NCBI RefSeq assembly: GCF_000143415.4
Contig: NW_003314469.1
Location: 43,619 to 67,497, forward strand
DNA from: Selaginella moellendorffii
Lineage: Eukaryota; Plantae; Lycopodiophyta
Length of the DNA: 23,879 nucleotides
Direction: 5' to 3'
Position numbers and translations under genes: made by a program. Position 1 is the stretch's first letter. Each line of letters starts with the position of its first letter. The notes beneath the pieces are model-generated. The model made no database searches, had not been told where the DNA came from, and was given only the letters and a program-made list of their open reading frames with translations. This document shows positions 834-23,879 of this stretch, piece after piece.

Positions 834-1135
834 TCATAGATCAGATAGCGATATGTAGTGGTGCTTAAATTTTGTATCCTGGATCCACATGAGAATGACG
901 TGATAGCAAAGAGCAAGACTTACCTGTAGCATTAAGTCGACTCTACCATTGGGACTTCTAGATAGCCTTTCTGTCACCATACTGCCGTAAAAAGCTGTGA
1001 CAAAACCATACCCCAACCGAAGAACTTCCTCTAGCTTTAATAGCAAAACTCACAAAGCACTATGTTTACCTGTATCCCAAGATATTCACTGACTTTCTCC
1101 AAAAAGAATAGATATCAGAGGTTCCACTCTGTAAT
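834..1135 (-). pseudogene. SGR2: DDHD-domain phospholipase A1 (SGR2-like) fragment
   Basis: Minus-strand peptides YRVEPLI, YGSMVTERLSRSPNGRVDLMLQ, then a 45-nt GT-AG intron (923-879), then DTKFKHHYIS. These resemble the DDHD motifs AYRVEPL and GRIDHMLQ-DKTFEH. Truncated and with stops. Confidence 0.7.
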
Positions 1136-1399
1136 CAAGACGAAAGGATAAATGTAAACACTGCTAAGAGAGTATTCCATCATGTCCTCGCCAGTTTTTT
1201 TGCACTTGACTGCCAACACTTCCTCAAGAGAACTTGTCATAAACTGAAGAGCACCATGTATGGCTGTCGCGTATGACTATCCATGTAGAGACTACAGGGT
1301 TTATAGCGCTGCAAAATAGAAATCCCTCTCAATGCTTTAAAAACGCAAAACTGAAGAACAAGGAAGCGAACCGTGGATGAAATTTTCTATTTTTTCTCT

Positions 1400-1592
1400 T
1401 GGTTCCAGCCTTGAGCACCTGGAACAAACAGGAACTTTAAGCCTCGAAAGAGAATAGCGAAGAGCAAGAGAGTGAAAAACCTTGATTCTAGTCGTGGTTC
1501 CAGCCTCGAGAACCTGGAACAAACAGGGACTTGAGAGACCGGAAAGAAGAATAGCGACAAGCAAGAGAGTGAAGAACCTTGATTCTAGTCGT
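1400..1592. repeat. About 96-bp diverged tandem duplication covering the PKL-like stop and 3' UTR
   Basis: tggttccagcc...ccttgattctagtcgt occurs from 1400 and from 1495. Confidence 0.9.
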
Positions 1593-2339
1593 CGATGACA
1601 ACGTGAATCCCCTCGTTGTCCGAGACGTCGTCCTTCTTGTAGCTCCATCCACCATAGCCTCTTCACCTTTCACTCCCAATCCTCGTCGCATTTCCGAGCA
1701 GAGCATGTCGATCTGCTGAATGCACCTGCGCAGGTGGATGCTGGTGGATTTGTTCCCCGCATAAGTCTGGAAGGTGTCGAGCCTGTTCTCGCTGATCATC
1801 GAGCACAACTATGGCGACACAGAGAAAGCCGTGAGCCTCTCAAACCTTTGCAAATGGAGAAACAAACACAACCTCATTGTAATAGGCTGGAGCTTTCAGC
1901 CGCTTAGGATCGTTATCCAGTGCCGTTCCCAGGACTTCTTCCGGAGCTGTCCAAAAATGAACGCGTTAGAGTTTTTTCTAGTGTCTAAATCTAAGGAACT
2001 CACTCAAAGGTGTTGGATAAGGAACAAATGTGGGTTGCGGCTTTTGGTAGGAGGTTTTGGTCCCTCGCCAGGCTCGATGCCACCGTTGCTGCAATTGGCT
2101 GGAATATCTTGGTCATCCTGGAACATCTCAAGTTAGAATCGCAGGGATGACGATAGGGGGGTCAAGACTCTTTTACCAGATGATATTCTGCGTTGAGTAC
2201 TTTTTTCCATAAGTGTGACTCGTTTCTTCACGAACTGGATAATTCTCCTGTTGAAGAACGCTTCAGCGTCAGTTAAATGATTGTCATTTTCCGGTGCATG
2301 AGCTTTTGAACCTGAGAATGAACCAACTGGTGGCATCAT
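1585..2339 (-). pseudogene. PKL: PICKLE/CHD3 chromatin remodeler C-terminal fragment, copy 1 (longest)
   Basis: RRIIQFVKKRVTLMEK resembles PKL RRLVEFVKKRVLLLEK. ALDNDPKRL...YYNE, an intron, then CSMISENRLDTFQTY resemble the PKL C-terminal DNDPDRL..LYNEMC region. Frameshifted; stop at 1587-1585. Confidence 0.75.
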
Positions 2340-2375
2340 GTACAGCTGACTGTAGCCTTCTAAATCATTCCATCA

Positions 2376-2416
2376 AACACACACATCAAACACACACACA
2401 CACACACTCACAGAGG

Positions 2417-2481
<65 letters not shown>
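2376..2481. repeat. Compound microsatellite: CA-rich tract plus (AG)30
   Basis: Read directly; the AG run spans 2422-2481. Confidence 0.97.
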
Positions 2482-2484
<3 letters not shown>

Positions 2485-5400
2485 CTTCCTGCTAGCGATG
2501 ATCGACGCTCTCTCCTCGTGCTAACGCGCCCTAAAAGACAATTGAAAGTTTTTATGATCCCAAAAGTCACGGCTCTCCATTGTTTAATCTCAGCCGTTAG
2601 ATTTTGGCATATGCCCAGAATAAGTGTCGTCAGTATATGCCATTATTATACGAGCTCTTTCGTTTAAATATATGAGTATGACTAGCAGAGACCCCAGCTC
2701 CGTTGGGAGATATAGCATACCCAAGATAAATAGATCTTCTTTTCTAATTTTATTGTATACAAGGTTAAATTTATCAGATGCATTATAATTTATTATCAGA
2801 TAAATGATAAATCAGAAATCATAGATGAATTCTCAATAAAAAATTTAGTTATAATTCCATTGTTGTGAATATTCAAGTGACAATAGAAATGATGACTAAC
2901 ATATATTATTCCCCCTTTCAATTATATTCTGAGACTCTCACTCGAGAAGCTCTCATATTCAAAGCTTGATTTTAGATCTTGATATAGTTTATCTCTGGGA
3001 GGTATAGCATACCCAAGATAGATAAATCTTATTTTTCTAGTCTTACAGTTTTAGAAATTTTTCTTGTATATAAAGTTAGATTTATCTAAAATTTTTTACT
3101 ATTCATCTCAAGGGAAATGCACAATAATTCAAAAAGATAATAATGCAAGTGTTGGGGAAGATAAGATCATTTTTTATCATCATTAAATTTAAATTTGATG
3201 TTTTTATTACCTTTATAACATGGTGCACAACCCTAAACAAATCTACAGAATTGCTGCCATGCTTGAAAAACAATTGAGTTTTCACAAAAACAAAGAATCA
3301 TAGACTACCAAAAAATTAATAGGTTAGTATGAGAAATTATAATTTTAACTGCATACTGAGTTAAATTCTTTTTATCTGAACTATAATAATGCCTCTAACA
3401 TTCATAGTTTACTAAAGAATAATAGAATTTCTATTATGTGTCTGGTTTTACATTTTAAAACATACATAAATATCTATCTAGTTTGCTACCACATTTATAT
3501 TAAACCTCATAAGCTGAATGGTTTAGATTCTAGATTCCAGAGCAAACTAATATTCTCTTTTATATTCATCCAAAGATAATAATTACATTAGAGATATAAT
3601 TTTGTATTAAGACAAATCTGTATTACTGCTTGATGATAAAATTATAAATTCATTTCTGATATAAGATGTGGTATCTAATATGGTATAAGATATCTCATAC
3701 ACATACAAATATCAAATCAATTTCTTAATAATATCTGAAAATTTAGCAAAGACTTTTATATTTTTATTTAATCTTCTTGCTCATAACCTACTTAAATCTA
3801 TCGTCAGCTTTATATGAGTTTTATCTTTTGTCTAAATATTGAAACAATGATTTATTTTCTATAGTTAAAACGTATGCTTTATATAAGTCTAGCAAATATA
3901 ACTCCACTGGCAGACATAAAAATAATATTTTTAAAATACTTATATGAGATTTTTTATAAAATAAAATTATTAATACATCTATAATGCAGAACATAATTTA
4001 ACATAGATCAAGAGTGTGTAAGAAATTTTGTAACTTATAATATAAAAGATAACTACTATGAAATTAAAATGATGAAGAGACAAAATACTTGAGAAGGAAA
4101 AACATAGAAGAAATTTTTACAAATAAGAATTAAAAATGTTAGAAAGAGATTTCTAAATGAACTTCTCATGAAAAAGAGTTTCAGGTTAAACATTAGTAGA
4201 ACAACTTCCAATTAAATATCTAGATTGTTAGGAATAAATTTGAAAATATTAAACTAAGATTTCTCAAGATTATATTTAGATGATATCATCCTAGAAGTTA
4301 TGATTATAAAAGCTTATAGATGTTATGACTTTGAAAGCTTTAATAAACTCTGCAACCTGCAACAATTTTATTCAAGATTGTGTCTAGCCAACGGATTTTA
4401 AATTATATAAACATAAAAATTTTAAAAATTTCAGTTTAAATATAAAATTGAAATTAATATAATAAAACTGAAATTATCTAAATTATAACATGATTATAAA
4501 CAATTAAAGATTATATTAAAGATTAATTTTGTAAGAAAAGCTAGATCTAGCACTTAAATAATAGTATTATTATATTTTGTACATGTTACTATATTCAATA
4601 TAGTGAAATTTTATTATCAATGCTGGGAGAAATAAAAATTAAGGATTAAAGTCCCAGCTACATTGAGAGTATTGTGTTTATTTCTAATGTCTTAGTAATT
4701 TAAAAGAGTTGTAATTTTAATTTTAATTTCAAAAATATTCAAAATGATAACATATATAGTTAAACATAATATAATATTTATATTAAAATTCAATTCTATA
4801 ATTGACCCTATCACCAGCACATATCATAACATAATAAATATAGCTCATAGCATTATATTACATATAAAATTTTAACTGCTGAATGAAGTTTTGGATATTT
4901 TATAAATGGAATAGCTTACAATGGAATCCCATGGGCAGATGAGTCATTTAGAGATTGAGGTTAGGTAATTAATTGTTCCTTTTATTTTTAAACTATATAA
5001 TTGATAACAAAAAGTATTATTACTTGATGATTTATTCAACACTATAATTTTTACTCTTACTAAAGTAAGTGTTAATTAATTACAATAAAATATATTTTAT
5101 AAATTTAAAATTATAGACATTGTTATGGAGTTTAGTTTTACATCACTTCAAACTGAAAATTTTTAATTGCATTAAATGTTTTACTTTTATGTGTTTTACT
5201 TTATTTGAACTTTTCATTTTTTACATATTTGACTTCAGTATTTGCTTTTTTGTCTAATTTTTATATTTATGCATTTTGAGTGTAATATGTAAATTTAGAC
5301 CTATTATATTATATATTAGAAGGAATCATTTTGTATATGTGTTATATAGAGAGGCTTTATAAAGCTTTAATAATTTAAGGCTTTATAAAATTGTTTTAAT

Positions 5401-6092
5401 AATTTTTTTATTGCTTTAATAAATTGCTTAATAATAACTTGCTTAATAATTGCTTTAATAATTTAAGGCTTTATAAAATTGTTATAATGGCTGAAATTTA
5501 TATAATGATAAATGTATGGTAAGGTTTGACTCTATACTGGGCTGCAGATTCGATTATTTACAACCCTTTTCTTTATGCTAGAACAATAATATATCAGAAA
5601 ATTCATGAATAGTATATCGATACATTTCATATATGTAAGTTTCAATTGATGATGAATGAAATAAATCTTAGAATATATCTTAGGCATGACAACTCAATGT
5701 ATTTAATTTCCGTTATATATTAATAAGTACCATTAGATTACTGATAGAAACTAAATTATTATACAGAAGAAGCAGCTAAAAATATTAAGTTATCTATTTT
5801 AAGTTAGAATATATCATATTGTTATATACACTATTTTCTTCATATTATACTTTAAAATATTTTTATGATTTCGAATTCTATGTTTTCCAAAAATTACACA
5901 TAATAAATTCTCTATAAGTACATAGTATGTTATTTTATTTTTATAGTATTTTTATATTTGTATTTGACATCCTCCCCATTCATAGTATTTATATTCATAC
6001 TTTTAAGAGTAACTAATGAAAAGTTAAAATATTATATTATATATCATTATCATTATTTCTGTATATAGTTTTATATTAAGATAATGCTAATA

Positions 6093-6436
6093 NNNNNNNN
6101 NNNNNNNNNNNNNNNNNNNNNNNNNNNNNNNNNNNNNNNNNNNNNNNNNNNNNNNNNNNNNNNNNNNNNNNNNNNNNNNNNNNNNNNNNNNNNNNNNNNN
6201 NNNNNNNNNNNNNNNNNNNNNNNNNNNNNNNNNNNNNNNNNNNNNNNNNNNNNNNNNNNNNNNNNNNNNNNNNNNNNNNNNNNNNNNNNNNNNNNNNNNN
6301 NNNNNNNNNNNNNNNNNNNNNNNNNNNNNNNNNNNNNNNNNNNNNNNNNNNNNNNNNNNNNNNNNNNNNNNNNNNNNNNNNNNNNNNNNNNNNNNNNNNN
6401 NNNNNNNNNNNNNNNNNNNNNNNNNNNNNNNNNNNN
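6093..6436. other. Assembly gap (344 N)
   Basis: Run of N. Confidence 1.
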
Positions 6437-7169
6437 GAGAAATAGATCTTCTTTTCAATTTTACAATGTCAGAAATTATGCTTGTAAACAATGTTAAATT
6501 TATCTTAATTTTGCTACTATTCATCTCCAGAGAAATGGACAATAATGCAATTAAATAATAATGCAAATTTTGGGGAATATAAGATCATTTTTTAATCATC
6601 ATTAAATTTGAATTTGAAATTTTTATTACCTTTTTATTAAAAATTTTATTTGAATTTGATTTTTTATTGCAAGTAGAATAGCTTTGGTAGGTGTTAGTTC
6701 TGTTTAGATCATCATGCAACGATGCTGTTTCTTATTGATAAGTATTTTTGGTTTTTTTTTCTGTTTTGTATTCAAGCAAACATAGCAATAGCACAATAGA
6801 ATAGAGATTCTTGTATGTGCAAGTCACTCTTTTTTTCTGTTTTACTGTTTTCTGCCTGCACGTTTCCTTTTGAATGTTTTAAGCGTTTTTAGGATTGTGA
6901 TCTAGAGCGACATATAGACTTTTTTGTTTTTTAGCTAATACCTTTACGAGAGAGAGCAAAACACTAAATAAAATCAAACACGGAAATCATTTCTATGCCC
7001 TGAGTTAATGTACAAATATCATGTACTGAATCAAACCAAGCTCATGGCTTCAAAGGTGTGTCTATAAACACGTACATACACAACAGTTGTCTTATTCCTT
7101 CAGAAATGGCTTTTTTAAAAACAGTTCATGGCTTTGTCTGTAAGAAAGTAGAGTAGGCTGCCATGTAGA

Positions 7170-7395
7170 GCTCCAATCCTTGTTCTCCACCACCTCAGCT
7201 GCCATGTACTTCGCTGTTGTGATATCTCCTAAAGGTGCTGATCACCACTTTCTCGCACATGTTTAGCTTGGAAAGAATGTTGTCGAGCTTGAGATCCTGG
7301 TGACCCACGCCTCTCAAATAAATCTATTTGAAAGTCTTTACCAGCTGCTTGATGATTCTGGCTGCTTTCTCCTCACCAATCTTCTTGCAAATATG
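7170..7395 (-). pseudogene. Ser/Thr protein kinase fragment (CAMK/CDPK-like, subdomains VI-VIII)
   Basis: EEKAARIIKQLVKTFK*IYLRGVGHQDLKLDNIL (degenerate HRDLK..NIL); after a frameshift, TAKYMAAEVV (YMAPEV). Contains an internal stop. Confidence 0.75.
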
Positions 7396-7432
7396 CTATA
7401 TTTAAAAGACCACATAATTATGGAATAACGCC

Positions 7433-7950
7433 TTAAGAAATGAAGGCAATATTTCCACCAATGAACGTAACCAATCGAGGAAAAATGCCCGTGCCCCGTC
7501 CAAAATGAGACTCAGACAACACTACAAAGTCGGCAAACTTTCCTTGCGTCAGCGACCCAACCAAATCTTCTAATGCAGCTGAATACACAGCCGAGGATGT
7601 GTACCTGTGAATCCAAAAACACGAACTGCATTTCAGTTTTGTCATCTGTTTTCTCTTACCCTGCCACTGCGTCCCATGCAGAAATCCTTTCCTCGGGAAT
7701 CCAGGGATGACTCCAGCCCGAAGGTGTTCTCTCCATGGCAGTGCAGATCCCTCCAACTGGATTCACGGCTACCACCTTGAGACAAACCATTCACGTAACG
7801 CCAAAGAAAAAGTAATTGACAGGCTTACAGGCCAGTCGGATCCTAACCACGCTACCGTTTTCGAGGGACCAGAGGTTATAAGATCCGCATGAGTGCCTTC
7901 TAACCAAATTTCTTCACGGCGTAGTAAGCATCATCTAGAAGTTGCTCTGG
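7433..7950 (-). pseudogene. LAF3: Amidohydrolase_3 family (LAF3-like) C-terminal three-exon fragment
   Basis: Exons PEQLLDDAYYAVKKFG*...LGSDWP | VNPVGGICTAMERTPSGWSHPWIPEERIS | YTSSAVYSAALEDLVGSLTQGKFADFVVLS, with GSDWP and GSL.PGK.ADFV.LS-type motifs. Confidence 0.8.
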
Positions 7951-8026
7951 CTGTACAAAAATATAGGGTTTTGCAATGGAGGCAAAATGCAGGTCTACTG
8001 GTCGATGCGCACAATGCATGGTTTCT

Positions 8027-9551
8027 TCAGATTCCTCTCTGCTCGGTTTGGCCTTTACTACGGCCTTTTGGACGTCCTGTGGTTTCCTTCTGTGATGTTT
8101 TCCTTCCTGGCGTTAGAGAGTAACTGAGGATCAAACGAAACAAACCTCGCCATGTAAGATAGCACTGCCTGAGCAAAGCCAGGCTTGTACGAGAAGAGCA
8201 GCCCATGGAAGAGCTTCCCATCGATGGAGGCTTCTAGTTGAATACGTCGCTTACTCTAGCCTTGAACATCTTCTCGCCTAGTGGCTGAACGTGAGCTTGA
8301 AACTCTGTAGCATGAGTTTGACAGGGAAATATTGGAGAGGTCCAAGGTTTTCCACAGATACCTCCGTGAGATGAAACCAAGCTCTTGTCCGCATCCCGTT
8401 GCTTGTCTAGCATGAATGGCGTGGCACGATACTCTTGCTGCCTTCTCTTAAGTTCCTTACGCATGGATAGCTTTGGTTCTGATGGATCTTTCTCCCTCAG
8501 CATCTCTTCACAGAAAAACGGCAACCATATTGTCAAGAATGGCAGCAATGTCAATAAAAGAAGAAGCCAACCTGTGTCGAGGAAATACATGTCATCCAGA
8601 GCTTCAAGCTCTTCGTTACATCCCCCATAGAAGAATAATATGCCTCGCTCTGCGTTCACAGAATCTCCTGCAAGGGAGAAACGTGGAGAAGGCCCGGGAC
8701 CAGAGGGATTCGAAGTCGCCCAAACACCAGTCGCTACAAAATACATAAAAGCCCCATGAGAGACCAACAGGAAACAAATCTACCTACAAGCGCACGTACT
8801 TAAGTCAAGAGTATGGACGTCATTGAATAGCTTGCGATCATCGGAGAATCCTCCAAACACGACAAGATACTTTCCATGGCTGATTGTTGTGTGCCCGGCT
8901 CTTGGCATCAGCTCGGCACCAGTCGTCTTTACCTCCGCCATGCCATTGTTTCTGGAAACGCAAATGAATTCGCAAGTTTAAAACCAGCACAATGTATGTA
9001 CCTGTGTCCAGAATATGAACATCGTTTAGATAGGCATTACCACCGTCCTCGCCACCCATGACAACGAAACAGTTCTTAAGGTATGGCTATCCCGAGAAAT
9101 AGGCGAGACTCCAGTGGTAGAAATCTTCTTCCAGACAAAAGTATCTACAGGGAAAAAAAAAGTTTAGAAGAAAACAAGGAAAGTTAACAGAATATTACTC
9201 GTGTTCAAAACATGGAGGTCGTTGTAGTACTCCTCCTCTGAGGGATCGCTGGATTTCCCACTTCTTCCAAACATGAACAGGTTGTCACCGATGAGAGACG
9301 TGCTATGTCCTTCTCTCAAAGCAGGAACATCACCGAAGTGTTGGTAGCTGCATCGGATGATAAGAACAAGAAAAAAAAATCGATAGAACTCGGAGCTTAC
9401 CAGTATCCAAAACAAAGAGTATGATTGAGCGGGCTGGTTCCATCGGTACCACCAAACACATGGAGCTTAGACCCGACGGCCATTGAGCTGTGGCTGTCTC
9501 GAGGAGAAGGGTGCGTTCCTTTCATCACAGGCTTGCTCCAGGTGTACATCC
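8027..9551 (-). pseudogene. Multi-exon kelch-repeat (galactose oxidase/kelch superfamily) gene, 5'-truncated, copy 1
   Basis: Kelch motifs PSPRDSHS, VFGG, GGEDGGNAYLNDVHILDT and PRAGHT with short GT-AG introns. Starts at an intron acceptor. Deletions near 8237, 9078 and 9337 relative to copy 2. Confidence 0.85.
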
Positions 9552-9588
9552 CTGCGCGATCCCACCAGAAGAGTGAAGAACCTTGATT

Positions 9589-10259
9589 CTAGTCGTCGAT
9601 GACAACGTGAATCCCCTCGTTGTCCGAGACGTTGTCCCTGTCATGAGCTCCATCCACCATAGCCTGTTCGCCTTTCACTCCCAATCCTCGTCACATTTCC
9701 GAGCAGAGCACGTCGATCTGTCAAATGCACCTGCGCAGGCGGATGCCAGCGATTTTTTTCCCAGCGTAAGTCTGGAAGGCATCAAGCCTGTTCTCGCTGA
9801 CCATCGAGCACAACTATGGCAACACAGAGAAAGCCGTGAGCCTCTCAAACCTTTGCAAATGGAGAAACAAACACAACCTCGTTGTAATAGGCTGGGACTT
9901 TCAGCCGCTTAGGATCGTTATCCAGTGCCGTTCCCAGGACTTCTTCCGGAGCTGTCTAAAAATGAATGCGTTACAGTTTTTTCTAGTGTCTAAATCGAAG
10001 GAACTCACTCAAAGGTGTTGGATAAGGAACAAATGTAGGTTGCGGCTTTTGGTAGGAGTTTTTTTGGTCCCTCACCAGGCTCGACACCGCCGTTGCTGCA
10101 ATTGGCCGGAATATCTTGGTCATCCTGGAACATCTCAAGTTAGAATCGCAGGGACGACGATAGGGGGGTCGAGACTCTTTTACCAGATGATATTCTCAGT
10201 TGAGTACTTTTGCCATAAGTGTGACTCTTTTCTTCACGAACTCGGTAATTCTACGAACT
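9589..10259 (-). pseudogene. PKL: PICKLE/CHD3 C-terminal fragment, copy 2
   Basis: Close match to 1585-2243; RRITEFVKKRVTLM; in-frame stops. Confidence 0.75.
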
Positions 10260-11527
10260 CTACAAACAGAGACAAATCCCTTCCTAGGGTTAGAAATAGG
10301 ATAAATGAAACGTACCATCTACATATCAATCTGCAAAGCATACTTAAGCAAAGCATTCCCTCCCAGTCGATGGAGCGGTTGCAAATCTAGAATTGAAACA
10401 GTACCTCCCATATTGCCATCTTGGCCGTCTATATCAATCGTCACAGATTTGGACAGTCAGATTAATAGTATCTACCATAAGTAAAAATGGATATTCTTAA
10501 AATAGAATATGTGACGCCGATGCCAAAATAGCAACTTTAAATAAAGAGTTTGACTAGCTGGGATCCCAGCTCCGCTGAGAGAAGTACAAAATATTTTGGG
10601 CACATTGAATTTTTAAGCATTTTAGCGTCAAGAGTAAGCATTTTAATATTAATTTTAAAATAATCAGTTGAAAGTTATAGTTGTAAGCTCTAGAAAGAAA
10701 GGCTTTGTAATTAATCAAAACTGGCTTCTTTTATTTTACAAGTTTTGTGCTTGAAATGAAAGCAAATGCCTTTCTAAATTCATCATCCTAGAGATGGAAC
10801 ATATGATATCCATAATTAAAAGTTACAACATCTACTTGAAATCTTGATATCAAGGGAGGGTGTTCTAGCATAACCCACTTGGTTTTAAATCAAAGGAAGA
10901 TAAAAACAGAAGTGTTCAAAGGCTTGCTTTTTATTCTAGATTTCCTGTCCAAGTTTTAACCAGTGAAGTTCTACAGAATCTTAGATTTTTTCAGTGACTT
11001 ACTGTAAAGTGGCAAGAAGAAATTGAAGAGAGGTGGTGGAAGTTTAATGAGGACCCAAGCAGCTTTATTCTACTCAACATGGATATTGAGTTCAGAGTCA
11101 TTGCCTTTGGAACACATCAAAGTCAGCCTGGGGGTTCTACTTGCAGAGGAACTTCTTGCATGCTCTCTTTTGATCACAAAGCATTTGATGTTAAGAAACT
11201 GCTAAAAGAGAAAAAGAAATGCAAAATCTAAGACATAATAGTGTTAGGCCATAAAATATAACTTTTTGACCAAAGCAATGCTGATAAGTGAGATCTGTGA
11301 ATTTTAGTTTCCTGTTGTGCATACTTGAAAATTTGAGAGTTAAGAAATCCAGATTATTATAATGCAAGAAAGAGCCAGACCATATAAAGTGAAAAAGAGT
11401 TGGACTTTTGTAAATCTTTGACGAAGGCAACACAGATACATGAGACCTGGTGACTCTTTAATTTTCAAACCCGCAGGGAGAACAGAGGTAAGATTCCTTC
11501 CAAACCATGAAGAAAAATCACAAATGC

Positions 11528-12423: not shown

Positions 12424-12864
12424 TCATGAGAAGGGAAGAAGGAAATAAATAAGATGACCCCTAAGTGATCCAGAGAATTTACTAAACGATGTGTTCTGTA
12501 AGATCTTGAGATTCGAGAGAGTTACGCAAGAATCCAACGCCGAGATGAGTGTCAGCTTGTCCGATTTCACTCCCTGGAGTTGCATATGAATGAATACTCT
12601 GGCAGCCGAGCGATCGTCGTCACAGCAAGAGAAAGAGGACAGCAGCCCATTCCAAAGAAGAGCACTGTAGCCACCGGAAGAGAAAGAGACTTGATCAAAA
12701 GCTTGTCTCACTTCGTCCAGGCTTCCACAGGCCCTGTATGCGTTCATAAGAGCTCTCCCCAAGACCTTGTCGATCTCCACGCCACTATCTCTCACAGCTT
12801 CGTGGATCACTCTCGTCTGATCCAGTCTCCAGCAAGCATCTAGCATTGTCACAAAGGTCGCCAT
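12424..12864 (-). pseudogene. PLS-class pentatricopeptide repeat (PPR) fragment
   Basis: ATFVTMLDAC, ALMNAYRACGSLDEVRQAFD, WNGLLSSF and MQLQGVKSDKLTLISALDSC; only 2-3 motifs, no E/DYW domain. Confidence 0.88.
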
Positions 12865-13541
12865 AAAGATGAATTCAAGCTTGCTGAACTTCTTTTTATT
12901 ATACAGCCTTCATGTAAAATTAGATCACATGTTTTCCTCTTTCTTTTGCCACCCATTGATCTATAGGAGATTTTACAATCTCTTTTAGAAATAGAAGCTT
13001 AGACAGCGTGTGCAGGCTCTAGATGGTGATAATAAGTAAATAGACAAATAGCCAGACCACAAGAAAATAGAAGCACACTGAATGTTGCCCTTAGGACTTT
13101 CTAATTATCTCTCAGAGAACACAGAAACAAAATTACCTCTTGACAAATGCATAAGGCAACCTAATTGTGTAGTTCTTTTTTCTATGATTCGAAACAGTTT
13201 TTCTTAACCTACGTGTCTATTAGTTACACTCTCAAAAAGCCTTTGACAGTAAAGAGGTTTACCACAGCTTTTTAAGGTAATATTGTGACATTGTAATAAT
13301 CTTTTCTAATATTGTGATAAGTGATTAGAGGAAATAACATCCCCTTCAACCACGACATCAGAAATGTGAACTTTGCAATTTGTTTGATTCTAACATACAG
13401 TTGCCATCATAGTCCCATAAACTAAATGTGCCCAGAGGCAATGTGATCCCAGAGCCAGCCAACGCAGATCCTAGGCTCTGCCCTTGATGCTCATGGCAAT
13501 CCGCTGCAATTGGAGGGAAAAGAGAAAAAACTCAGTTAAAA

Positions 13542-13927
13542 CTGGATCTTACAAGTACAAAACAAAACAAAGAAAAATGCTACCTGTACACTGGTTTGGA
13601 GAGCTTGATCAACGTATTTTAGTGGTTGTTTCTCCATTTGAAGAGTTCCCCTGCAGGATAAAAGTTTATTGCTAAGCAAACATGAGTCGCAATCTGCAAG
13701 GAAAAGGTCAATTTAGAAAGCAAGATCAATCCCCTGGATCTTACAAGTACAAAACAAAAAAAAGAGAAAATGCTACCTGTACACTGGTTTGGAGAGCTTG
13801 ATCAACGAATTTTAGTGGTTGTTTCTCCATTTGAAGAGTTCCCCTGCAGGATAAAAGTTTATTGCTAAGCAAACATGAGTCACAATCTGCAAGGAAAAAG
13901 TCAATTTAGAAAGCAAGATCAATCCCC
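13542..13927. repeat. About 192-bp tandem duplication containing a small minus-strand exon-like segment
   Basis: ctggatcttacaagtac...caagatcaatcccc starts at 13542 and 13734; the copies are near-identical. Confidence 0.95.
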
Positions 13928-14079: not shown

Positions 14080-15356
14080 TGTACACTTGCATCACAAAAA
14101 GGCTTTTTCATCCCATATATAAGAAACGACTATGAAAAAACTCACCTTCCTGTGTTACCACAACCAAGAGATTTGACAGGCCGAAAATGGTGGAGTCAGT
14201 TTCTCGCCACTAGTTTGAATCTGCATTTAAAACAAGCAAGAAAACTGGAGAAGTCATCAGACTAAACATGCGCTCATGAATCTTTCTAATAGCATCCCAA
14301 GAGTTTAGATAAACGACTTTAGAGTGTTTAGCCCGAAGGTTGTTGGTTGTCTGGACACGAGCAAAAGAAAAAAAATTCTTGAACTCCCAAACAGCCCTCT
14401 GTTACTCGCTCCTGCACAACAAGAATCAAGTTAGCCACAGAGATCAAGAGAAATGAGAGATCATGCTAAAACCTAGATCCATATGCATGCTGGGAATCTT
14501 GTTGCAAGCCCTTGGCGTGACAGGATGAGAGATCCAGGAGCACCAGGCAGTCTCTTTGTTGCTTGATCATATATGAGCTGCCCAAGCACGTACTCCTTGT
14601 TGTACATAATAAGAGGCAGTAAAATATGCACATGTAAAGAAGCACTGAGAATATGCATACATCTGAAGCAGGTCTGCAGCTGCATCATGTCTTGACAACA
14701 CTGTCACCTCCAAACCTCGCCGCATATCTCTGGCCTAAAGAAATCGTCAACAAGAACAACACAAGAAAGAGAAAACGTACCATAAAATTCACAGTCTCTT
14801 GATCTTCCAAAGTCATATCAAACAATGACATGACCACTGAGTGGGTATAAATATTTTTCCTTTGACAAGACTGTATGACACACACAACATGGCGAACAGG
14901 AGGGATTGTACACTTGCATCACAAAGAGGCTTTTTAATCCCATAAATAAGAAACGACTATGAAAAAACTCACCTTCCTGTGTCACCAAAATCAAGAGATT
15001 TGACAGGCTGAAAATGGTGGAGTCAGTTTCTCGCCACTAATTTGAATCTGCATTTAAAACAAACAAGAAAACTGGAGAAGTCATTAGACTAAACATAGGC
15101 TTATGAACCTTTCTAATAGCATCCTGAGAGTTTAGATAAACGACTTTAGAGTGTTTAGCCCAAAGGTCATTGGTTGTCTGGACACAAGCAAAAGAAAAAA
15201 AATCTTGAACTCCCAACAGCCCTCTGTTACTTGCTCCTGCGCAACAAAAACCAAGTTAGCATTAGAGATCAAGAGAAATGAGAGATCAGCCATACGCATG
15301 CTGGGAATCTTGTCGCAAGCCCTTGGTGTGACAGGGTGAGAAATCCGGGAGCATCA
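14080..15356. repeat. About 450-bp direct duplication (about 14080-14545 and 14908-15356) around unidentified exon-like sequence
   Basis: Both copies run from tgtacacttgcatcacaa to ...gcaagcccttgg.gtgacagg.tgaga.atcc.ggagca. Confidence 0.92.
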
Positions 15357-15503
15357 GCCAGTGGGGAAGTCATCACGGAGCTGGAGATTGTGTTCTTCAG
15401 ACTGTCCGCCATTGACCTGTGCATCTGTTGCGAATGGCAATGAACAATCAACAATCCAGCCTTTTGCAAAGGGTACGCACACTCCTGCTGCTGTGTTCAC
15501 CAC

Positions 15504-15505
<2 letters not shown>

Positions 15506-15585
<80 letters not shown>
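15506..15585. repeat. (GA)40 microsatellite
   Basis: Read directly. Confidence 0.98.
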
Positions 15586-15589
<4 letters not shown>

Positions 15590-15835
15590 AGCTTACAATC
15601 TGCCTGAGTCCTAAAAGATTCACTTGATTTGGAGGGTCATTCAATTCAAAGTTGAAGCGTTGCCACCCCTTTGGCACTTGATCTATGCCATCTATTTGAA
15701 GTTTTTGAATTTGAGCTGTTAGATTATAAGTATATTCAGAAATAATATTCTAAAAATGGAATAAAAGATGCCGGATGCCATATGCCAATAGCATGTTTAA
15801 ATAAGGGGGTACTATCAGAGACCCCAGCTCCGCTG

Positions 15836-16743
15836 GGAAATATAGCATACCTAAAATAAATACATCTTCTATTTTAATTTTACAATGTTAGAAATTTTGA
15901 TTGTATACAAGGTTAAATTTATCTTAATTTTGCTACTCTTCACCTCTAAAGAAATGCAGAACAATGCAAATAGATAAAAAATGCAAGTTTTGGAAAACAT
16001 AATATCATTTTTTCATCATCACTAAATTTAAATTTGAATTTTTTTATTGCCTTTATAAAAAGATACAAAAACCTAAACATGTCTACAAGATTGATGCCAT
16101 GATTTAAAATCAATTGATTTTTCACAAAACCAAAGAATTATATACTGCCAAAAAAAAAGGTTTGGGGAAATTATTTTTTGATTACATACTAAGCTTTTTT
16201 TTTTATTTATCTGAACTATAATGCTGCCTTTAACTTTCATAGTCTAATAAAGAACAAAAGAATTTCTATTATGTGTCTTGATTTATATTTACAAATAAAC
16301 ATAAGTAAATCTATCTAGATATTCACACTACATTAGAGGTGTTTGAAAAGAGGTACATCCAAAGATAATAATTATATTAGAGATATAATTGTATTAAGAC
16401 AAATCTCTACTAATGCTTTATAACAAAACTATACATTCCAATTTATAAAAACATTACTATTGAATGATTACACACTACTTACTCTTCAGCAATTATATAA
16501 AGAAGAATATGATTGCAGATTAATATATTATATAAAAATATTAATGTTTTAAATATAAACATGGAGATAACATTAATATGTACATATTAAAATTAATTTT
16601 TTAATCTATTTGCATTATTGTGCATTTCTTTAGAGGTGAAGAGTAGCAAAATTAAGATAAATTTAACCTTGTATACAATTAAAATTTCTAACATTGTAAA
16701 ATTAGAAAAGAAGATGTATTTATCTTAGGTATGCTATATCTCC
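15836..16743. repeat. About 147-bp inverted repeat (15836-15982 and 16596-16743)
   Basis: The reverse complement of 16596-16743 matches the 3'-subterminal sequence of D with few mismatches. Confidence 0.93.
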
Positions 16744-19332: not shown

Positions 19333-19334
19333 GT

Positions 19335-20816
19335 TTCCTCCTGTGATGTTTTCCTTCCTGGCGTTAGAGAGTAACTGAGGATCAAACAAAACAAATCTCG
19401 CCATGTAAGATTGCACTGCCTGAGCAAAGCCAGGCTTGTATGAGAAGAGCAGCCCATGGAAAAGCTTCCCATTGATGGACGCTTCTAACGTGTATCCGTA
19501 GTTGAATATGTCGCTTACTTTAGCCTCGAACATCTTCTCGCCTAGCGGCTGAACATGAGCTTGAAACTATGTAGCATGAGTTTGACAGGGAAAATTGGAG
19601 AGATCCAAGTTTTTCTGCAGATACCTCCGTGAGATGAAACCAAGCTCTTGTCTGCATCCCGTTGCTTGTCTAGCACGAATGGCGTGGCATGATACTCTTG
19701 CCGCCTTCTCTTAAGTTCCTTACGCATGGATAGCTTTGGTTCTGATGGATCTTTCTCCCTCAGCATCTCTTCACAGAAAAACGGCAACCATATTGTCAAG
19801 AATGGCAGCAATGTCAATAAAAGAAGAAGCCAACCTGTGCCGAGAAAATACATATCATCCAGAGCTTCAAGCTCTTCGTTACATCCCCCATAGAAGAATC
19901 ATATGCCTCGCTCTGCGTCCACGGAATCTCCTGCAAGGGAGAAACGTGGAGAAGGCCCGGGACCAGAGGGATTCGAAGCTGCCCAAACACCAGTCGCTAC
20001 AAAATACGTAAAAGCCCCATGAGAGACTCACGTACTTAAGTCGAGAGTATGGACGTCATTGAATAGCTTGTGATCATAGGAGAATCCTCCAAACACGACG
20101 AGATACTTTCCATGGCTGATTGTTGTGTGCCCGGCTCTTAGCATTAGCTCCGCACCAGTCGTCTTTACCTCCCGCCATGCCATTGTTTCTGGAAACGCAA
20201 ATGAATTCGCAAGTTTAAAACCAGCACCATGTATGTACCTGTGTCCAGAATATAAACATCGTTTAGATAGGCATTACCACCGTCCTCGCCACCCATGACA
20301 ACGAAACAGTTCTTATAGAAAGAGCAGGTATGGCTATCCTGAGGAATAGGCAAGACTCCAGTGGTAGAAATCTTCTTCCAGACAAAAGTATCTACAGGAA
20401 AAAAAAAAAGTTTAGAAGAAAACCAGGAAAGATAACAGGATATTACTCGTGTTCAAAACATGGAGGTCGTTGTAGTACTCCTCCTCTGAGGGATCGCTGG
20501 ATTTCCCACATCCCCCAAACACAAACAGGTTGTCACCAATGAGAGACGCGCTATGTCCTTCTCTCGAAGCAGGAACATCACCAAAAACGTCGGGTTTCCC
20601 CTAGGTGGTGGTAGCTGCATCAGATGGTAAGAACAAGAAAAAAAATTGATAGAACTCGAAGCTTACCAGTATCCAAAACAAAGAGATCGTTGAGCAGGCT
20701 GGTTCCATTGGTACCACCAAACACATAGAGCTTAGACCCGACGGCCGTTGAGCTGTGGCTGTCTCGAGGAGAAGGGTGCGTTCCTTTCATCACAGGCTTG
20801 CTCCAGGTGTACGTCC
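19335..20816 (-). pseudogene. Kelch-repeat gene, copy 2
   Basis: Paralogous to 8085-9551. Keeps the segments deleted in copy 1 but has a TAG at about 20602-20604 where W is expected, a shortened intron near 20027 and a truncated 3' end. Confidence 0.85.
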
Positions 20817-20853
20817 CTGCGCGATCCCACCAGAAGAGTGAAGAACCTTGATT

Positions 20854-21525
20854 CTAGTCGTCGATGACAACGTGAATCCCCTTGTTGTCCGAGACGTTGT
20901 CCCTGTCGTGAGCTCCATCCACCATAGCCTCTTCGCCTTTCACTCCCAATCCTTGTCGCATTTCTGAGCAGAGCACGTCGATCTGTCGAATGCACCTGCG
21001 CACGCGGATGCCGGCGCTTTTTTTTTCCAGCGTAAATCTGGAAGGTGTCGAGCCTGTTCTCGCTGATCATCGAGCACAACTATGATGACACAGAGAAAGC
21101 CGTGAGCCTCTCAAACCTTTGCAAACGGAGAAACAAACACAACCTCGTTGTAATAGGCTGGGACTTTCAGCCGCTTAGGATCGTTATCCAGTGCCGTTCC
21201 CAGGACTTCTTCCGGAGCTGTTCAAAAACGAACGCATTAGAGTTTTTTCTAGTGTCTAAATCGAAGGAACTCACTCAAAGGTGTTGCATAAGGAACAAAT
21301 GTAGGTTGCGGCTTTTGGTAGGAGGTTTTTTGGTCCCTCGCCAGGCTCGACACCACCGTTGCTGCAATTGGCCGGAATATCTTGGTCATCCTGGAACATC
21401 TCAAGTTAGAATCGCAGGGACGACAAAAGGGGGGTGGAGACTCTTTTACCAGATGATATTCTCTGTTGAATACTTTTTCCATAAGTGTGACTCTTTTCTT
21501 CACGAACTCGGTAATTCTACGAACT
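20854..21525 (-). pseudogene. PKL: PICKLE/CHD3 C-terminal fragment, copy 3
   Basis: RRITEFVKKRVTLMEKVFNREY; near-identical to copy 2. Confidence 0.75.
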
Positions 21526-21821
21526 CTACAAACAGAGACAAATCCCTTCCTAGGGTTAGAAATAGGATAAATGAAACGTACCATCTACATATCAATCTGC
21601 AAAGCATACTTAAGCAAAGCATTCCCTCCCAGTCGATGGAGCGGTTGCAAATCTAGAATTGAAACAGTACCTCCCATATTGCCATCTTGGCCGTCTATAT
21701 CAATTGTCACAGATTTGGACAGTCAGATTAATAGTATCTACCATAAGTAAAATTGAATATTCTTAAAATGGAATATGGACGCCGATGCCAAAATAGCAAC
21801 TTTAAATAAAGAGTTTGATGA

Positions 21822-23879
21822 CTAGCAAAAGTCCCAGCTACGCTGGGAGCATTGTCTTTATTTTGGATATTTTAATAATTTCAAAGAGTTGTAAGTGTAA
21901 TTGTAATTTTAACATAATCATAATTATAAGATATATAGTTAAACATAACATAATCTTTATATTAAAAATCTCTTCTACAATTGATTCTATCACCAACACA
22001 CATCATAACATAAAAAATATAACTCAGTACATTGTATCATATTTAAAATTCTGATTGTTGAGTGAAGTCTTGGATATTCGATAAATGGAATTTCTCGATG
22101 AGTCATTTGTTTAATAACTAATTTTTTCTTTTATTTGAAATCTCTATATAATTGATAAAATATTATTATTTGATGATTTATTAAACTCTATAATTTTTCC
22201 TCCTAATAAAGTATGTGTTACTTAACTACACTCAAATATAATTATGTTAAAAATATGTTTATTATATATTTAAAAACTCAGCTAAAGTGTATACATATTT
22301 TAAATTAAAAAAATATAAACATTATTATGGAGTTTCTCTTTTCATCATTTCAGACTGAAAGTTTTGGAATTGCATGATAATAAGTGAAAGATGTTAGCTT
22401 TATGTGTTATATTTTCTTTTATAAAATTATAATATTTTACATATTTATCATTGATATTCCATTTTTACCTAATATTTATATTCATGCATTTTGAGAGTAA
22501 TATTTAAAATAGAGAGTATTCTATTATATATCATAAACATTATTTCTGTAGTTATTTTTATAAATCTGAAATAAGATTATTATCTCCCTATATTCTTGTA
22601 TTTATATTTAAAATTAAGGCTTTATAACACTGTTATGAATGCTGAAATTTTATGATGATAAATGAATGGTAATGTTTTACTCTATACTGGGGTAGAGGAG
22701 GGTTTGATGATATATAAACTTTTCTTTATGCTAGAACTATAATATATCAAAAAATTCATGAATGGTAGGTTTGATATAATATAATTAAATTTATTTATAT
22801 GGTCCATGTACTAATGTTGTCTCAATCATATTTATACCTTATTAAGTTTTTCATGTATAAATGCAATGTAGGATAAAGTGGTAGAAAATTTATGATATTA
22901 TATAAATCTTTGGCTACATCTTAGCCAATTGACATCTCAATATGTTTAATTTCATTTATATTTATATTAATAAATAACATAAGATTACTAATAAGAAAAT
23001 ATTTTAATAATAAGAGATAAATAATAAGAGGTAGGTAGTGCTAGGAATTGCAAGAGTGAGAGGAGGGTTGTCATGGTCAGGAGCAAATCAACACCAAGAA
23101 AGCTAGGGTGAAGATCAGGTGTGGCTTTCCTTTGCAGTTAATAGAGTACGAATTGATCCATGAAGAATTGGATGAAGAATTGCTGTAGATTAGACTTTAT
23201 AGAATAAAAGTAATATTAGTCTATGGAAAAATTGTTATTAGTATTTGAAAAGACCAGTTTGACATAAAAGGATCAAAATCATCATGTTCCAACTGTCATG
23301 CATGCAAAGTGTTCCATCAAAGAAGCAACAGGCTGCTGAGGACTACCTTGTCCAACTCTTTGCAGCCATCAATTTATGTGCCCTTCATAGCAAAAGAGTC
23401 ACAATAAGTCAGTATTCAAATAACACACACAAAAAGATTATAGAATTTATCAGCCAGCTTGAAAATTATACATTTAGGCTGTCGGCTTAGAGGAACCTTG
23501 GAGCATTTCATTTGGTACTACATTTCTTTTTCTTGCAAGTTCACTTAGAGTTTACCATGCAGCTTATACTTATTGATTAGAATCCTCAATTTTTCTTAGA
23601 AAATTGCTGCTACTTTCAGGCATAAATCGCTGTTAATTTCAGGCATCCTCAACCACATATTTTTTGGGAAATTAAATTTAGTATCAGCACAAAATCTGAC
23701 CTGGAAAGAGATGTAATTAAAAGTAAAAGTAAAATAAACATACTTTTACTAATAAGAAAATATTTTACACAACAGATATTTAGATCTATTAACTCCTCTA
23801 TTTTAAGTTATAAAATATCATATTTTTATAGAAAATATTTTATTTATATTGTAATTTAGATATTTTATTTTTTATTTAT
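21822..23879 (-). mobile_element. 3' part of Helitron-like element E (continues beyond the window)
   Basis: CTAG at 21825-21822 and hairpin tcccagc-tac-gctggga (21832-21848). The AT-rich body is homologous to about 4648-5830. Confidence 0.75.
23073..23500 (+). pseudogene. CENH3: Histone H3-family fragment, most like centromeric CENH3
   Basis: MVRSKSTPRK at 23073; AG/GT-bounded exon 23332-23407 encoding AAEDYLVQLFAAINLCALHSKRVTI; then CRLRG near 23480. AAEDYLV and these intron positions fit plant CENH3 better than canonical H3 (AAEAYLV). The central histone fold is missing. Confidence 0.68.

What the first reader, a model, noticed from the sequence alone, without database searches (positions are those of the whole stretch)
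22985..23767. CENH3-like insert flanked by an exact 22-bp direct repeat, with an empty-site homolog in the same window
Seen: ttactaataagaaaatatttta occurs at 22985-23006 and 23746-23767, bracketing 739 bp that holds the H3/CENH3-like pieces. The homologous body at about 5720-5830 runs through this position without the insert. The insert keeps intron-like sequence and is antisense to the element. Inference: capture as filler DNA during repair of a staggered break, rather than by read-through or retroposition. This is a rare direct footprint of how cargo is acquired.
Basis: partly seen in the sequence, partly recalled or inferred. Interest (0 to 1): 0.8.

Follow-up and report, generated by a model that had tools for sequence, protein, structure and literature searches.

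The report
CENH3 fragment inserted into a Helitron
A broken piece of an H3-type (likely centromeric) histone gene sits inside a plant rolling-circle transposon between two identical 22-base copies of the transposon's own sequence, likely patched in as DNA at a staggered break and likely copied along with the element afterwards: a clean example of a known but seldom-documented way such elements gain cargo.

Summary
Observation confirmed. The 22-mer is exact at 22985-23006 and 23746-23767, beyond chance. The host is an AT-rich, non-coding Helitron stretch on the minus strand, likely from Selaginella. The homolog near 5644-5871 and three empty-site forms in public contigs carry the 22-mer once. 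So the repeat is duplicated Helitron sequence, and read-through is excluded for this event. The 739-bp insert is antisense and holds a decayed H3 exon with CENH3-type borders, a retained 46-nt GT-AG intron and an exon-1-like start; the gene's middle is missing. It has no TIRs and no RT. Added here: sister versions about 97% alike span both junctions. The intron-bearing histone gene in the contigs is only 83% alike in the exon, with unlike introns, so the donor is probably a decayed relative. The middle block also occurs with other flanks. Repair filler is the best reading (0.55), but no junction signature exceeds chance, and an A-rich right end keeps retro-insertion of an unspliced pseudogene RNA open (0.25). 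Filler capture and TSD-flanked inserts in Helitrons are both in print. One good case of a known kind.

The parts
21822..23879 (-). Host non-coding Helitron body (3' part; its 5' end lies beyond the window). CTAG at 21822-21825, GC-rich hairpin 21832-21848
   Evidence: many family contigs in four runs
22985..23006 (+). Left copy of the 22-bp duplicated target
   Evidence: single in empty forms
23007..23745 (+). 739-bp insert, 34.5% GC against about 20% in the body; no TIR; only two frames of 70 aa or more overlap it
23073..23118 (+). Exon-1-like start (ATG, 15 codons plus 1 nt, then GT). Stop at 23109-23111 in the window only; contigs of X1, X2 and X5 have C at 23109. Identification as CENH3 exon 1 is by resemblance only
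23160..23183 (+). 12-nt tandem duplication at an internal junction; contigs with a different upstream sequence (712 nt or more in X5) join at 23175
   Evidence: tables 7, 8
23175..23677 (+). Middle block that also occurs with other flanks (other upstream in X1, X2, X5; other downstream after 23677 in X5, 139 nt)
   Evidence: records 22, 23, 25; the two branches lie on separate contigs and are not shown to be one molecule
23332..23407 (+). 76-nt decayed H3-fold exon between AG and GT, borders as in plant CENH3-type genes
23408..23453 (+). Retained 46-nt GT-AG intron, A-rich
23454..23501 (+). Last-exon-like remnant with a frameshifted PW codon pair; weak (E 0.5 against P0006)
23716..23745 (+). 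A-rich right end of the insert (18 A of 30), not a pure poly(A)
23746..23767 (+). Right copy of the 22-bp duplicated target
   Evidence: spanned by sister contigs, records 7, 8, 16
4648..5871 (-). Diverged homologous Helitron body without the insert; one degenerate copy of the 22-mer at about 5738-5760

Best explanation
A 739-bp piece of a decayed, likely CENH3-derived gene lies antisense inside a Helitron body between two copies of 22 bp that empty family members hold once; it was likely inserted as DNA while a staggered break with a 22-nt overhang was repaired, and likely copied with the element afterwards. Steps. (1) Shown: the 22-mer is Helitron sequence, single in empty forms and doubled around the insert. 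(2) Inferred: two nicks 22 nt apart on opposite strands opened the body, and fill-in of both overhangs made the duplication. (3) Inferred: genomic DNA was copied or ligated into the gap; the donor was an already diverged CENH3-like copy, not the intron-bearing gene seen in the contigs. (4) Inferred: a template switch during capture, or a later internal deletion, removed the gene's middle and left the 12-nt duplication at 23160-23183. (5) Partly shown: versions about 97% alike keep both Helitron junctions, so the loaded element exists in several versions; whether these are separate loci or partly alleles is not settled. The fragment is predicted to be non-coding cargo.
For: Exact 22-mer, beyond chance. 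Empty homolog collinear on both sides. Three empty forms in contigs: joint 23006 to 23787 that continues with the right-flank letters (X2, X4), joint 22928 to 23745 (X2, X4, X5), and a loose end at 23752 carrying left-flank-like letters (X2). Retained GT-AG intron and a second donor GT on the + strand. Same exon borders in database frames that read through or skip at these points: P0002, P0006, P0007, P0034, P0036, P0039, P0040. No TIR (longest end match 4 nt); no RT or transposase match in the two long frames. Sister contigs across the left junction (X5 record 20, 8 differences in 259; X3 record 19, 6 in 116; X1 record 1) and the right junction (X1 records 7, 8; X2 record 16). Passages read: short tandem duplications from adjacent nicks are the commonest insertions in rice (PMC7971508); break-derived duplications from overhang fill-in (PMC8355091); filler model for Helitrons (PMC6544945).
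Against: No positive repair signature: the best word shared between each 30-nt insert end and the flanks is 8 nt, reached by 42% and 66% of 2000 shuffles. The right end is A-rich: 16 A of 23, reached by 3 of 5795 overlapping windows of the AT-rich bodies on the same strand, but 48 of 5795 when the T-rich windows of the other strand are counted; the window was chosen after seeing it. The insert runs from 66 nt before the ATG to past the last exon, as a transcript would. The donor's outer ends were not seen, so homology of the donor to the 22-mer is not excluded. The filler model as summarised in PMC6544945 predicts short homologies with the donor's flanks, not a target duplication. Copy counts rest on contig depth, which the tool says is no copy number.
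Confidence: 0.55

Rival explanations
1. LINE machinery reverse-transcribed an unspliced transcript of a CENH3-like pseudogene into the Helitron (target-primed); the 22 bp is a LINE-type target duplication and the A-rich end a decayed poly(A) tail.
For: The insert spans 5' leader to 3' trailer on one strand; A-rich right end next to the duplication; the retained introns are A-rich and unlike the U-rich acceptor of the intron-bearing gene, so they may not have been spliced; retrocopies with target duplications inside Helitrons, with empty sites and later amplification, are described in bats (PMC4224331, passages).
Against: GT-AG intron retained at the CENH3-type position; the tail is interrupted and followed by 7 non-tail letters before the repeat; tracts as biased occur on the other strand of the body (45 of 5795 windows); the bat cases lack introns and end in adenines; 22 bp is at the long end for LINE duplications (recalled, no call).
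Confidence: 0.25
2. Homology-guided integration: a donor element, circle or template that already held a copy of the 22-mer next to the CENH3-like piece recombined with the Helitron, so the second copy came with the donor.
For: The 22-mer sits in a high-copy family; weak similarity extends about 14 nt upstream of both copies (36 columns, 89%); the middle block occurs in another context; the window is a nest of Helitron pieces.
Against: Beyond the 22 bp the insert has no similarity to the family body; the upstream extension is AT-rich and varies among sister contigs at 23735-23739; the other context branches off at 23175 and 23677, far from the 22-mers.
Confidence: 0.12
3. The insert is an undescribed small mobile element with long target duplications, or the filled form is ancestral and the empty forms arose by deletion between the repeats.
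For: Several versions exist; deletion between 22-bp repeats would leave one copy.
Against: All contigs listed at the two junctions have Helitron flanks; no TIR, no TC/CTAG ends, no Rfam match; empty forms are far more abundant and more diverged, down to about 70-80% identity, which points to the empty state as older.
Confidence: 0.08

Closest known systems
Filler-DNA model of Helitron gene capture (insect Hel1 family, PMC6544945; passages read)
   Same: Host sequence internal to the element, acquired stepwise, with shorter empty core forms; end bypass excluded by position.
   Different: There the evidence is 2-13 bp junction matches to source loci; here it is an exact 22-bp duplication of the acceptor, and the donor ends are not known.
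Retrogenes inserted into bat Helitrons and amplified (PMC4224331; passages read)
   Same: Target duplication, empty sites, later propagation by the Helitron.
   Different: Those lack introns and end in adenines; this insert keeps a GT-AG intron and has only an interrupted A-rich end.
Tandem duplications from adjacent nicks and gene movement by break patching in plants (PMC7971508, PMC3445842; passages read; the primary papers of Vaughn and Bennetzen, Schiml et al. and Wicker et al. were not held)
   Same: Duplication of a short target, foreign DNA used as a patch.
   Different: Here both features meet in one event, inside a Helitron that appears to have spread it.
Plant CENH3 genes (P0005-P0007; S. 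moellendorffii CenH3 listed as JGI 171192, 126 aa, in the supplement of PMC4357034)
   Same: H3 fold C-terminal exon with the same two borders; possible PW ending.
   Different: Only fragments; middle of the gene absent; frameshifts; 83% identity over 89 nt to the intron-bearing gene in the contigs, whose identity with JGI 171192 I could not check.
SELMODRAFT_410943 (P0001, EFJ29016.1)
   Same: Its last 58 residues are a spurious reading of a sister version of this insert.
   Different: Differs from the window version at several codons; its first 158 residues have no match in the window.

Membership tests
Helitron (host element) | 3' CTRR terminus | tested here: met
   CTAG at 21822-21825, minus strand
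Helitron (host element) | Short GC-rich hairpin just before the 3' end | tested here: met
   7-bp arms, 3-nt loop, 21832-21848, 6 nt from CTAG
Helitron (host element) | 5' TC terminus | not testable with these tools
   5' end lies beyond 23879; no genome held. Neighbouring units begin with TC at 3 of 4 junctions
Helitron (host element) | Insertion between A and T without target duplication | tested here: inconclusive
   T follows CTAG, but it is the first base of the next unit; the other flank is outside the window
Helitron (host element) | RepHel gene (autonomous members only) | tested here: not met
   No Helitron domain in 15 frames scanned, chosen from 79 listed; consistent with a non-autonomous copy
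Helitron (host element) | Many dispersed copies | tested here: met
   1732, 806, 63 and 369 contigs laid in four runs, with many variant joints
CENH3 (insert) | H3-type histone fold | tested here: met
   PF00125 28.9 bits; PDB hits are H3 and Cnp1 at nearly equal score, so protein similarity alone does not separate H3 from CENH3
CENH3 (insert) | CENH3-type intron positions around the AAEDY exon | tested here: met
   76-nt exon between AG and GT; named CENH3/HTR12 isoform P0007 skips into the same 5' border; unnamed P0002, P0034, P0036, P0039, P0040 read through at the same 3' border. That canonical plant H3.3 lacks these introns is recalled, not tested
CENH3 (insert) | Extended loop 1 and CENH3-specific residues of the targeting domain | not testable with these tools
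   That part is absent from the insert; a profile from 7 hits found only the one exon
CENH3 (insert) | Intact coding sequence | tested here: not met
   Stop at 23109, missing middle, frameshifted last exon
LINE or processed retrocopy (insert) | Target-site duplication | tested here: met
   22 bp, single in empty forms
LINE or processed retrocopy (insert) | Poly(A) tail at the 3' junction | tested here: inconclusive
   18 A of the last 30, interrupted
LINE or processed retrocopy (insert) | Introns removed | tested here: not met
   46-nt GT-AG intron retained
LINE or processed retrocopy (insert) | RT or endonuclease coding sequence (LINE itself) | tested here: not met
   Two frames of 70 aa or more overlap the insert; one is histone, one has no family
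TIR DNA transposon (insert) | Terminal inverted repeats | tested here: not met
   Longest inverted match between the 40-nt ends is 4 nt
TIR DNA transposon (insert) | Short fixed target duplication (2-11 bp, recalled; 6 bp for GingerRoot, PMC6839031) | tested here: not met
   22 bp
Break-repair filler insertion | Empty acceptor site with one copy of the duplicated sequence | tested here: met
Break-repair filler insertion | Microhomology between donor flanks and acceptor ends | not testable with these tools
   Outer donor ends not retrieved
Break-repair filler insertion | Junction bases templated from nearby flank | tested here: inconclusive
   8-nt words, at chance level; not required in every event

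The most novel reading that the evidence does not exclude
Helitrons in this lycophyte gain internal cargo by a recurring route of their own: paired nicks inside the element body, possibly by the Rep nuclease, give a staggered break whose fill-in leaves a long target duplication around captured genomic DNA. A genome-wide search for duplication-flanked, intron-bearing inserts with empty sisters would then find many cases and make the capture mechanism directly testable.
Probability: 0.15. Interest if true: 0.7.

Novelty: new member of a known kind. Interest (0 to 1): 0.38.

Why it matters
How Helitrons pick up gene fragments is still argued between end bypass and filler repair. A case with filled and empty forms, an exact target duplication, retained intron and antisense orientation cannot be end bypass and gives a simple search signature to count such events. 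One case does not give a rate, and the RNA route is not excluded. The CENH3 identity is probably incidental: the piece is dead and only 83% alike to the intron-bearing gene, so silencing of that gene by small RNAs seems unlikely (inference). It also explains part of a false gene model (SELMODRAFT_410943) and warns against counting these pieces as CENH3 paralogs.

Tried and rejected
No whole genome is held, so the donor and loci could not be mapped. No RNA holder listed. A 25-nt insert motif gave 0 matches in metagenome contigs. Three protein searches and the representative search did not return a named S. moellendorffii CENH3. Apparent templated junction pieces (direct 24-mer at 23006-23029, inverted 29-mer at 23714-23742, fold-back at 23706-23766) looked like polymerase-theta signatures, but the word test was at chance level: rejected as evidence. 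A possible H3 alpha-1 remnant near 23626-23700 was not supported. A possible decayed spliced exon just upstream of 23332 could not be established without the parent gene. A 34-nt match at 23682-23715 with other flanks in X2 is too short to count. X5 has no cover at 23680-23737; not used as evidence. Rfam: 0 matches to E 0.1. Atlas hits for P0001 residues 1-158 were at 0.80 or below, not informative. Earlier findings: none. Primary papers of Wicker 2010, Vaughn and Bennetzen 2014 and Schiml 2016 were not held. No structure or complex prediction was run; not relevant to a dead fragment.

Full report
Observation. The 22-mer is present exactly at 22985-23006 and 23746-23767 and nowhere else within three mismatches. 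In 500 local dinucleotide shuffles of 21822-23879 the longest exact repeat was 19 nt, once; none reached 22. The bracketed stretch is 739 bp at 34.5% GC, against about 20% in the surrounding body. The homolog in the same window is collinear on both sides: 22887-23006 with 5644-5758 (93 of 113 columns) and 23746-23873 with 5738-5871 (97 of 128), each above the best of 200 shuffles, while the insert scores at the shuffle mean. The two alignments overlap on one degenerate copy of the 22-mer. A contig of run X3 matches 22964-23369 without a difference (record 18); that run may be the source of the assembly.

Organism and host element. The only close protein hit is a Selaginella moellendorffii gene model, P0001, so the window is likely from that species or a close relative. 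The AT-rich body ends on the minus strand in a 7-bp-arm hairpin and CTAG at 21822-21825, the 3' structure of Helitrons as described in PMC6544945. Its 5' end is outside the window and no genome is held. No Helitron helicase domain was found in the 15 frames scanned, chosen from 79. The histone piece is on the plus strand and so antisense to the element.

Empty sites elsewhere. Contigs from four runs (at most two samples) were laid on 21700-23879 and from four runs (at most three samples) on 22955-23800. Three empty forms appear: a joint from 23006 to 23787 that continues directly with right-flank letters (X2, X4); a joint from 22928 to 23745 (X2, X4, X5; 102 letters on the shorter side in X5); and a loose end at 23752 with left-flank-like letters (X2). 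Each holds the 22-mer once. Summed contig depth in X1 is 893-10712 over body bins 21846-22940 and 55-247 over insert bins; the tool warns that depth is no copy number, so I use this only as a hint that the empty form is the common one. The 22-mer is therefore Helitron sequence that was doubled, and the filled form is most likely derived. End bypass cannot place foreign DNA in the middle of a continuous body with a duplicated target.

What the insert holds. A frame at 23263-23487 matches PF00125 above the curated cut-off. PDB hits are canonical H3 and fission-yeast Cnp1 at nearly equal scores, so similarity alone does not decide H3 against CENH3. Gene structure does better: 23332-23407 is a 76-nt exon between AG and GT. 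A named CENH3/HTR12 isoform (P0007) and P0006 skip into exactly this 5' border, and unnamed frames P0002, P0034, P0036, P0039 and P0040 read through into an intron at exactly this 3' border, whereas P0033, P0037 and P0042 break one codon later. A 46-nt GT-AG intron follows, then a weak last-exon remnant with a frameshifted PW pair as in P0006 and P0007 (E 0.5). An exon-1-like start lies at 23073-23118; that label is by resemblance only. The middle of the gene is missing: a profile from 7 hits found only the one exon. There are no TIRs, no RT or transposase match and no Rfam match.

The donor is probably not the working gene. Contigs of 802 nt (X1) and 1023 nt (X2) match only 23328-23416, with 15 differences in 89, and diverge on both sides into a U-rich acceptor and an unrelated downstream intron (records 4 and 12). 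This is likely the functional CENH3; I could not check it against JGI 171192, which the supplement of PMC4357034 lists as the species' CenH3. In X1, X2 and X5 a different upstream sequence joins at 23175, next to a 12-nt tandem duplication; in X5 a different downstream sequence leaves at 23677. These branches are on separate contigs. They fit a third context that shares the middle block, which may be the donor, a longer sister or a derivative; the direction is not known. A more diverged relative of the exon-1 region also exists (7 differences in 52, X5 record 21).

Spread after capture. Contigs about 97% alike cross the left junction (X5 record 20, X3 record 19, X1 record 1) and the right junction (X1 records 7 and 8, X2 record 16). 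At 13 of the 40 sites shown (17 more not shown) every covering contig of X1, X2 and X5 differs from the window, and those runs hold further variants among themselves. P0001 is a spurious reading of one such version. At 1-3% divergence per copy, two 22-mers stay identical with probability 0.26-0.64, so the perfect repeat does not conflict with this age. Loci and alleles cannot be told apart here.

Mechanism. Best reading (0.55): two nicks 22 nt apart opened the Helitron body, the overhangs were filled in, and genomic DNA of a decayed CENH3-like copy was patched into the gap. Short duplications from adjacent nicks are reported as the commonest insertions in rice (PMC7971508) and overhang fill-in makes them in mammalian cells (PMC8355091). 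Against it, I found no positive repair signature: 8-nt junction words are reached by 42% and 66% of 2000 shuffles and by 110 of 280 natural AT-rich windows. The main rival (0.25) is LINE-driven insertion of an unspliced pseudogene RNA: the insert begins 66 nt before the ATG, ends in an A-rich tract (16 of 23; 3 of 5795 body windows on that strand, 48 counting both strands; chosen after the fact), and its introns are A-rich and may never have been spliced. Homology-guided integration (0.12) and an unknown element or reversed polarity (0.08) are weaker.

What is known. The filler model and internal stepwise capture are described for insect Helitrons (PMC6544945, passages). Target-duplicated retrogenes inside bat Helitrons, with empty sites and amplification, are described (PMC4224331, passages). 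Gene movement by break patching in plants is summarised in PMC3445842 (passages). A 2026 review of gene capture in plants does not contain the words 'filler' or 'double-strand' (PMC13317346, passages and counts). Also seen as passages only: PMC4357034 (plus supplement rows), PMC4683698, PMC6839031, PMC549713, PMC2267711. Searches listed no title or abstract start that describes this locus; I saw listings only (20 of 23, 15 of 50), and the library lacks most subscription papers, so this is weak evidence of novelty. Supplements of the Helitron papers were not read and may hold similar cases.

Verdict. Real, well-supported structure; mechanism plausible but not proven; a new member of a known kind. 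Interest 0.38.

Noticed in passing
window 2682-2685, 10554-10557, 15812-15815, 21822-21825 (minus strand): Four Helitron 3' ends each followed directly by a shared 5'-like sequence; CTAG then TC at 3 of 4, a degenerate form at 15812. The whole window looks like a head-to-tail array of five unlike cargo-carrying Helitrons. Such G/T junctions are described in maize (PMC2267711, passages).
   Followed up: partly
window 8082-10581 and 19333-21849; also 1566-2246: A 2.5-kb block (92% alike) with an intron-bearing kelch-repeat gene fragment on the minus strand follows two of the junctions; a 0.68-kb part occurs a third time. Sense to the elements, unlike the CENH3 piece.
   Followed up: partly
window 4619-4668: The homologous body has a hairpin remnant without CTAG and runs on into another body that ends at 2682; contigs with a similar continuation at 21828 exist. 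Looks like a bypassed 3' end in the same family.
   Followed up: no
window 7100-8080 and 12424-12909: Further decayed cargo on the minus strand: amidohydrolase-like (below cut-off) and PPR-like pieces.
   Followed up: no
window 13542-13927 and 14080-15362: A 193-bp tandem duplication (97%) and a 470-bp direct duplication (89%) inside the cargo.
   Followed up: no
window 15836-15981 and 16598-16743: A 146-bp inverted duplication (94.5%) of the sub-terminal body sequence.
   Followed up: no
window 2422-2481 and 15506-15585: (AG)n tracts at a similar distance, about 200-230 bp, from two of the junctions.
   Followed up: no
P0001 (EFJ29016.1): The gene model appears to join 158 unrelated residues to a reading of this dead fragment; probably a false annotation.
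   Followed up: partly
window 6094-6436: An assembly gap of N cuts the homologous body on its 5' side.
   Followed up: no
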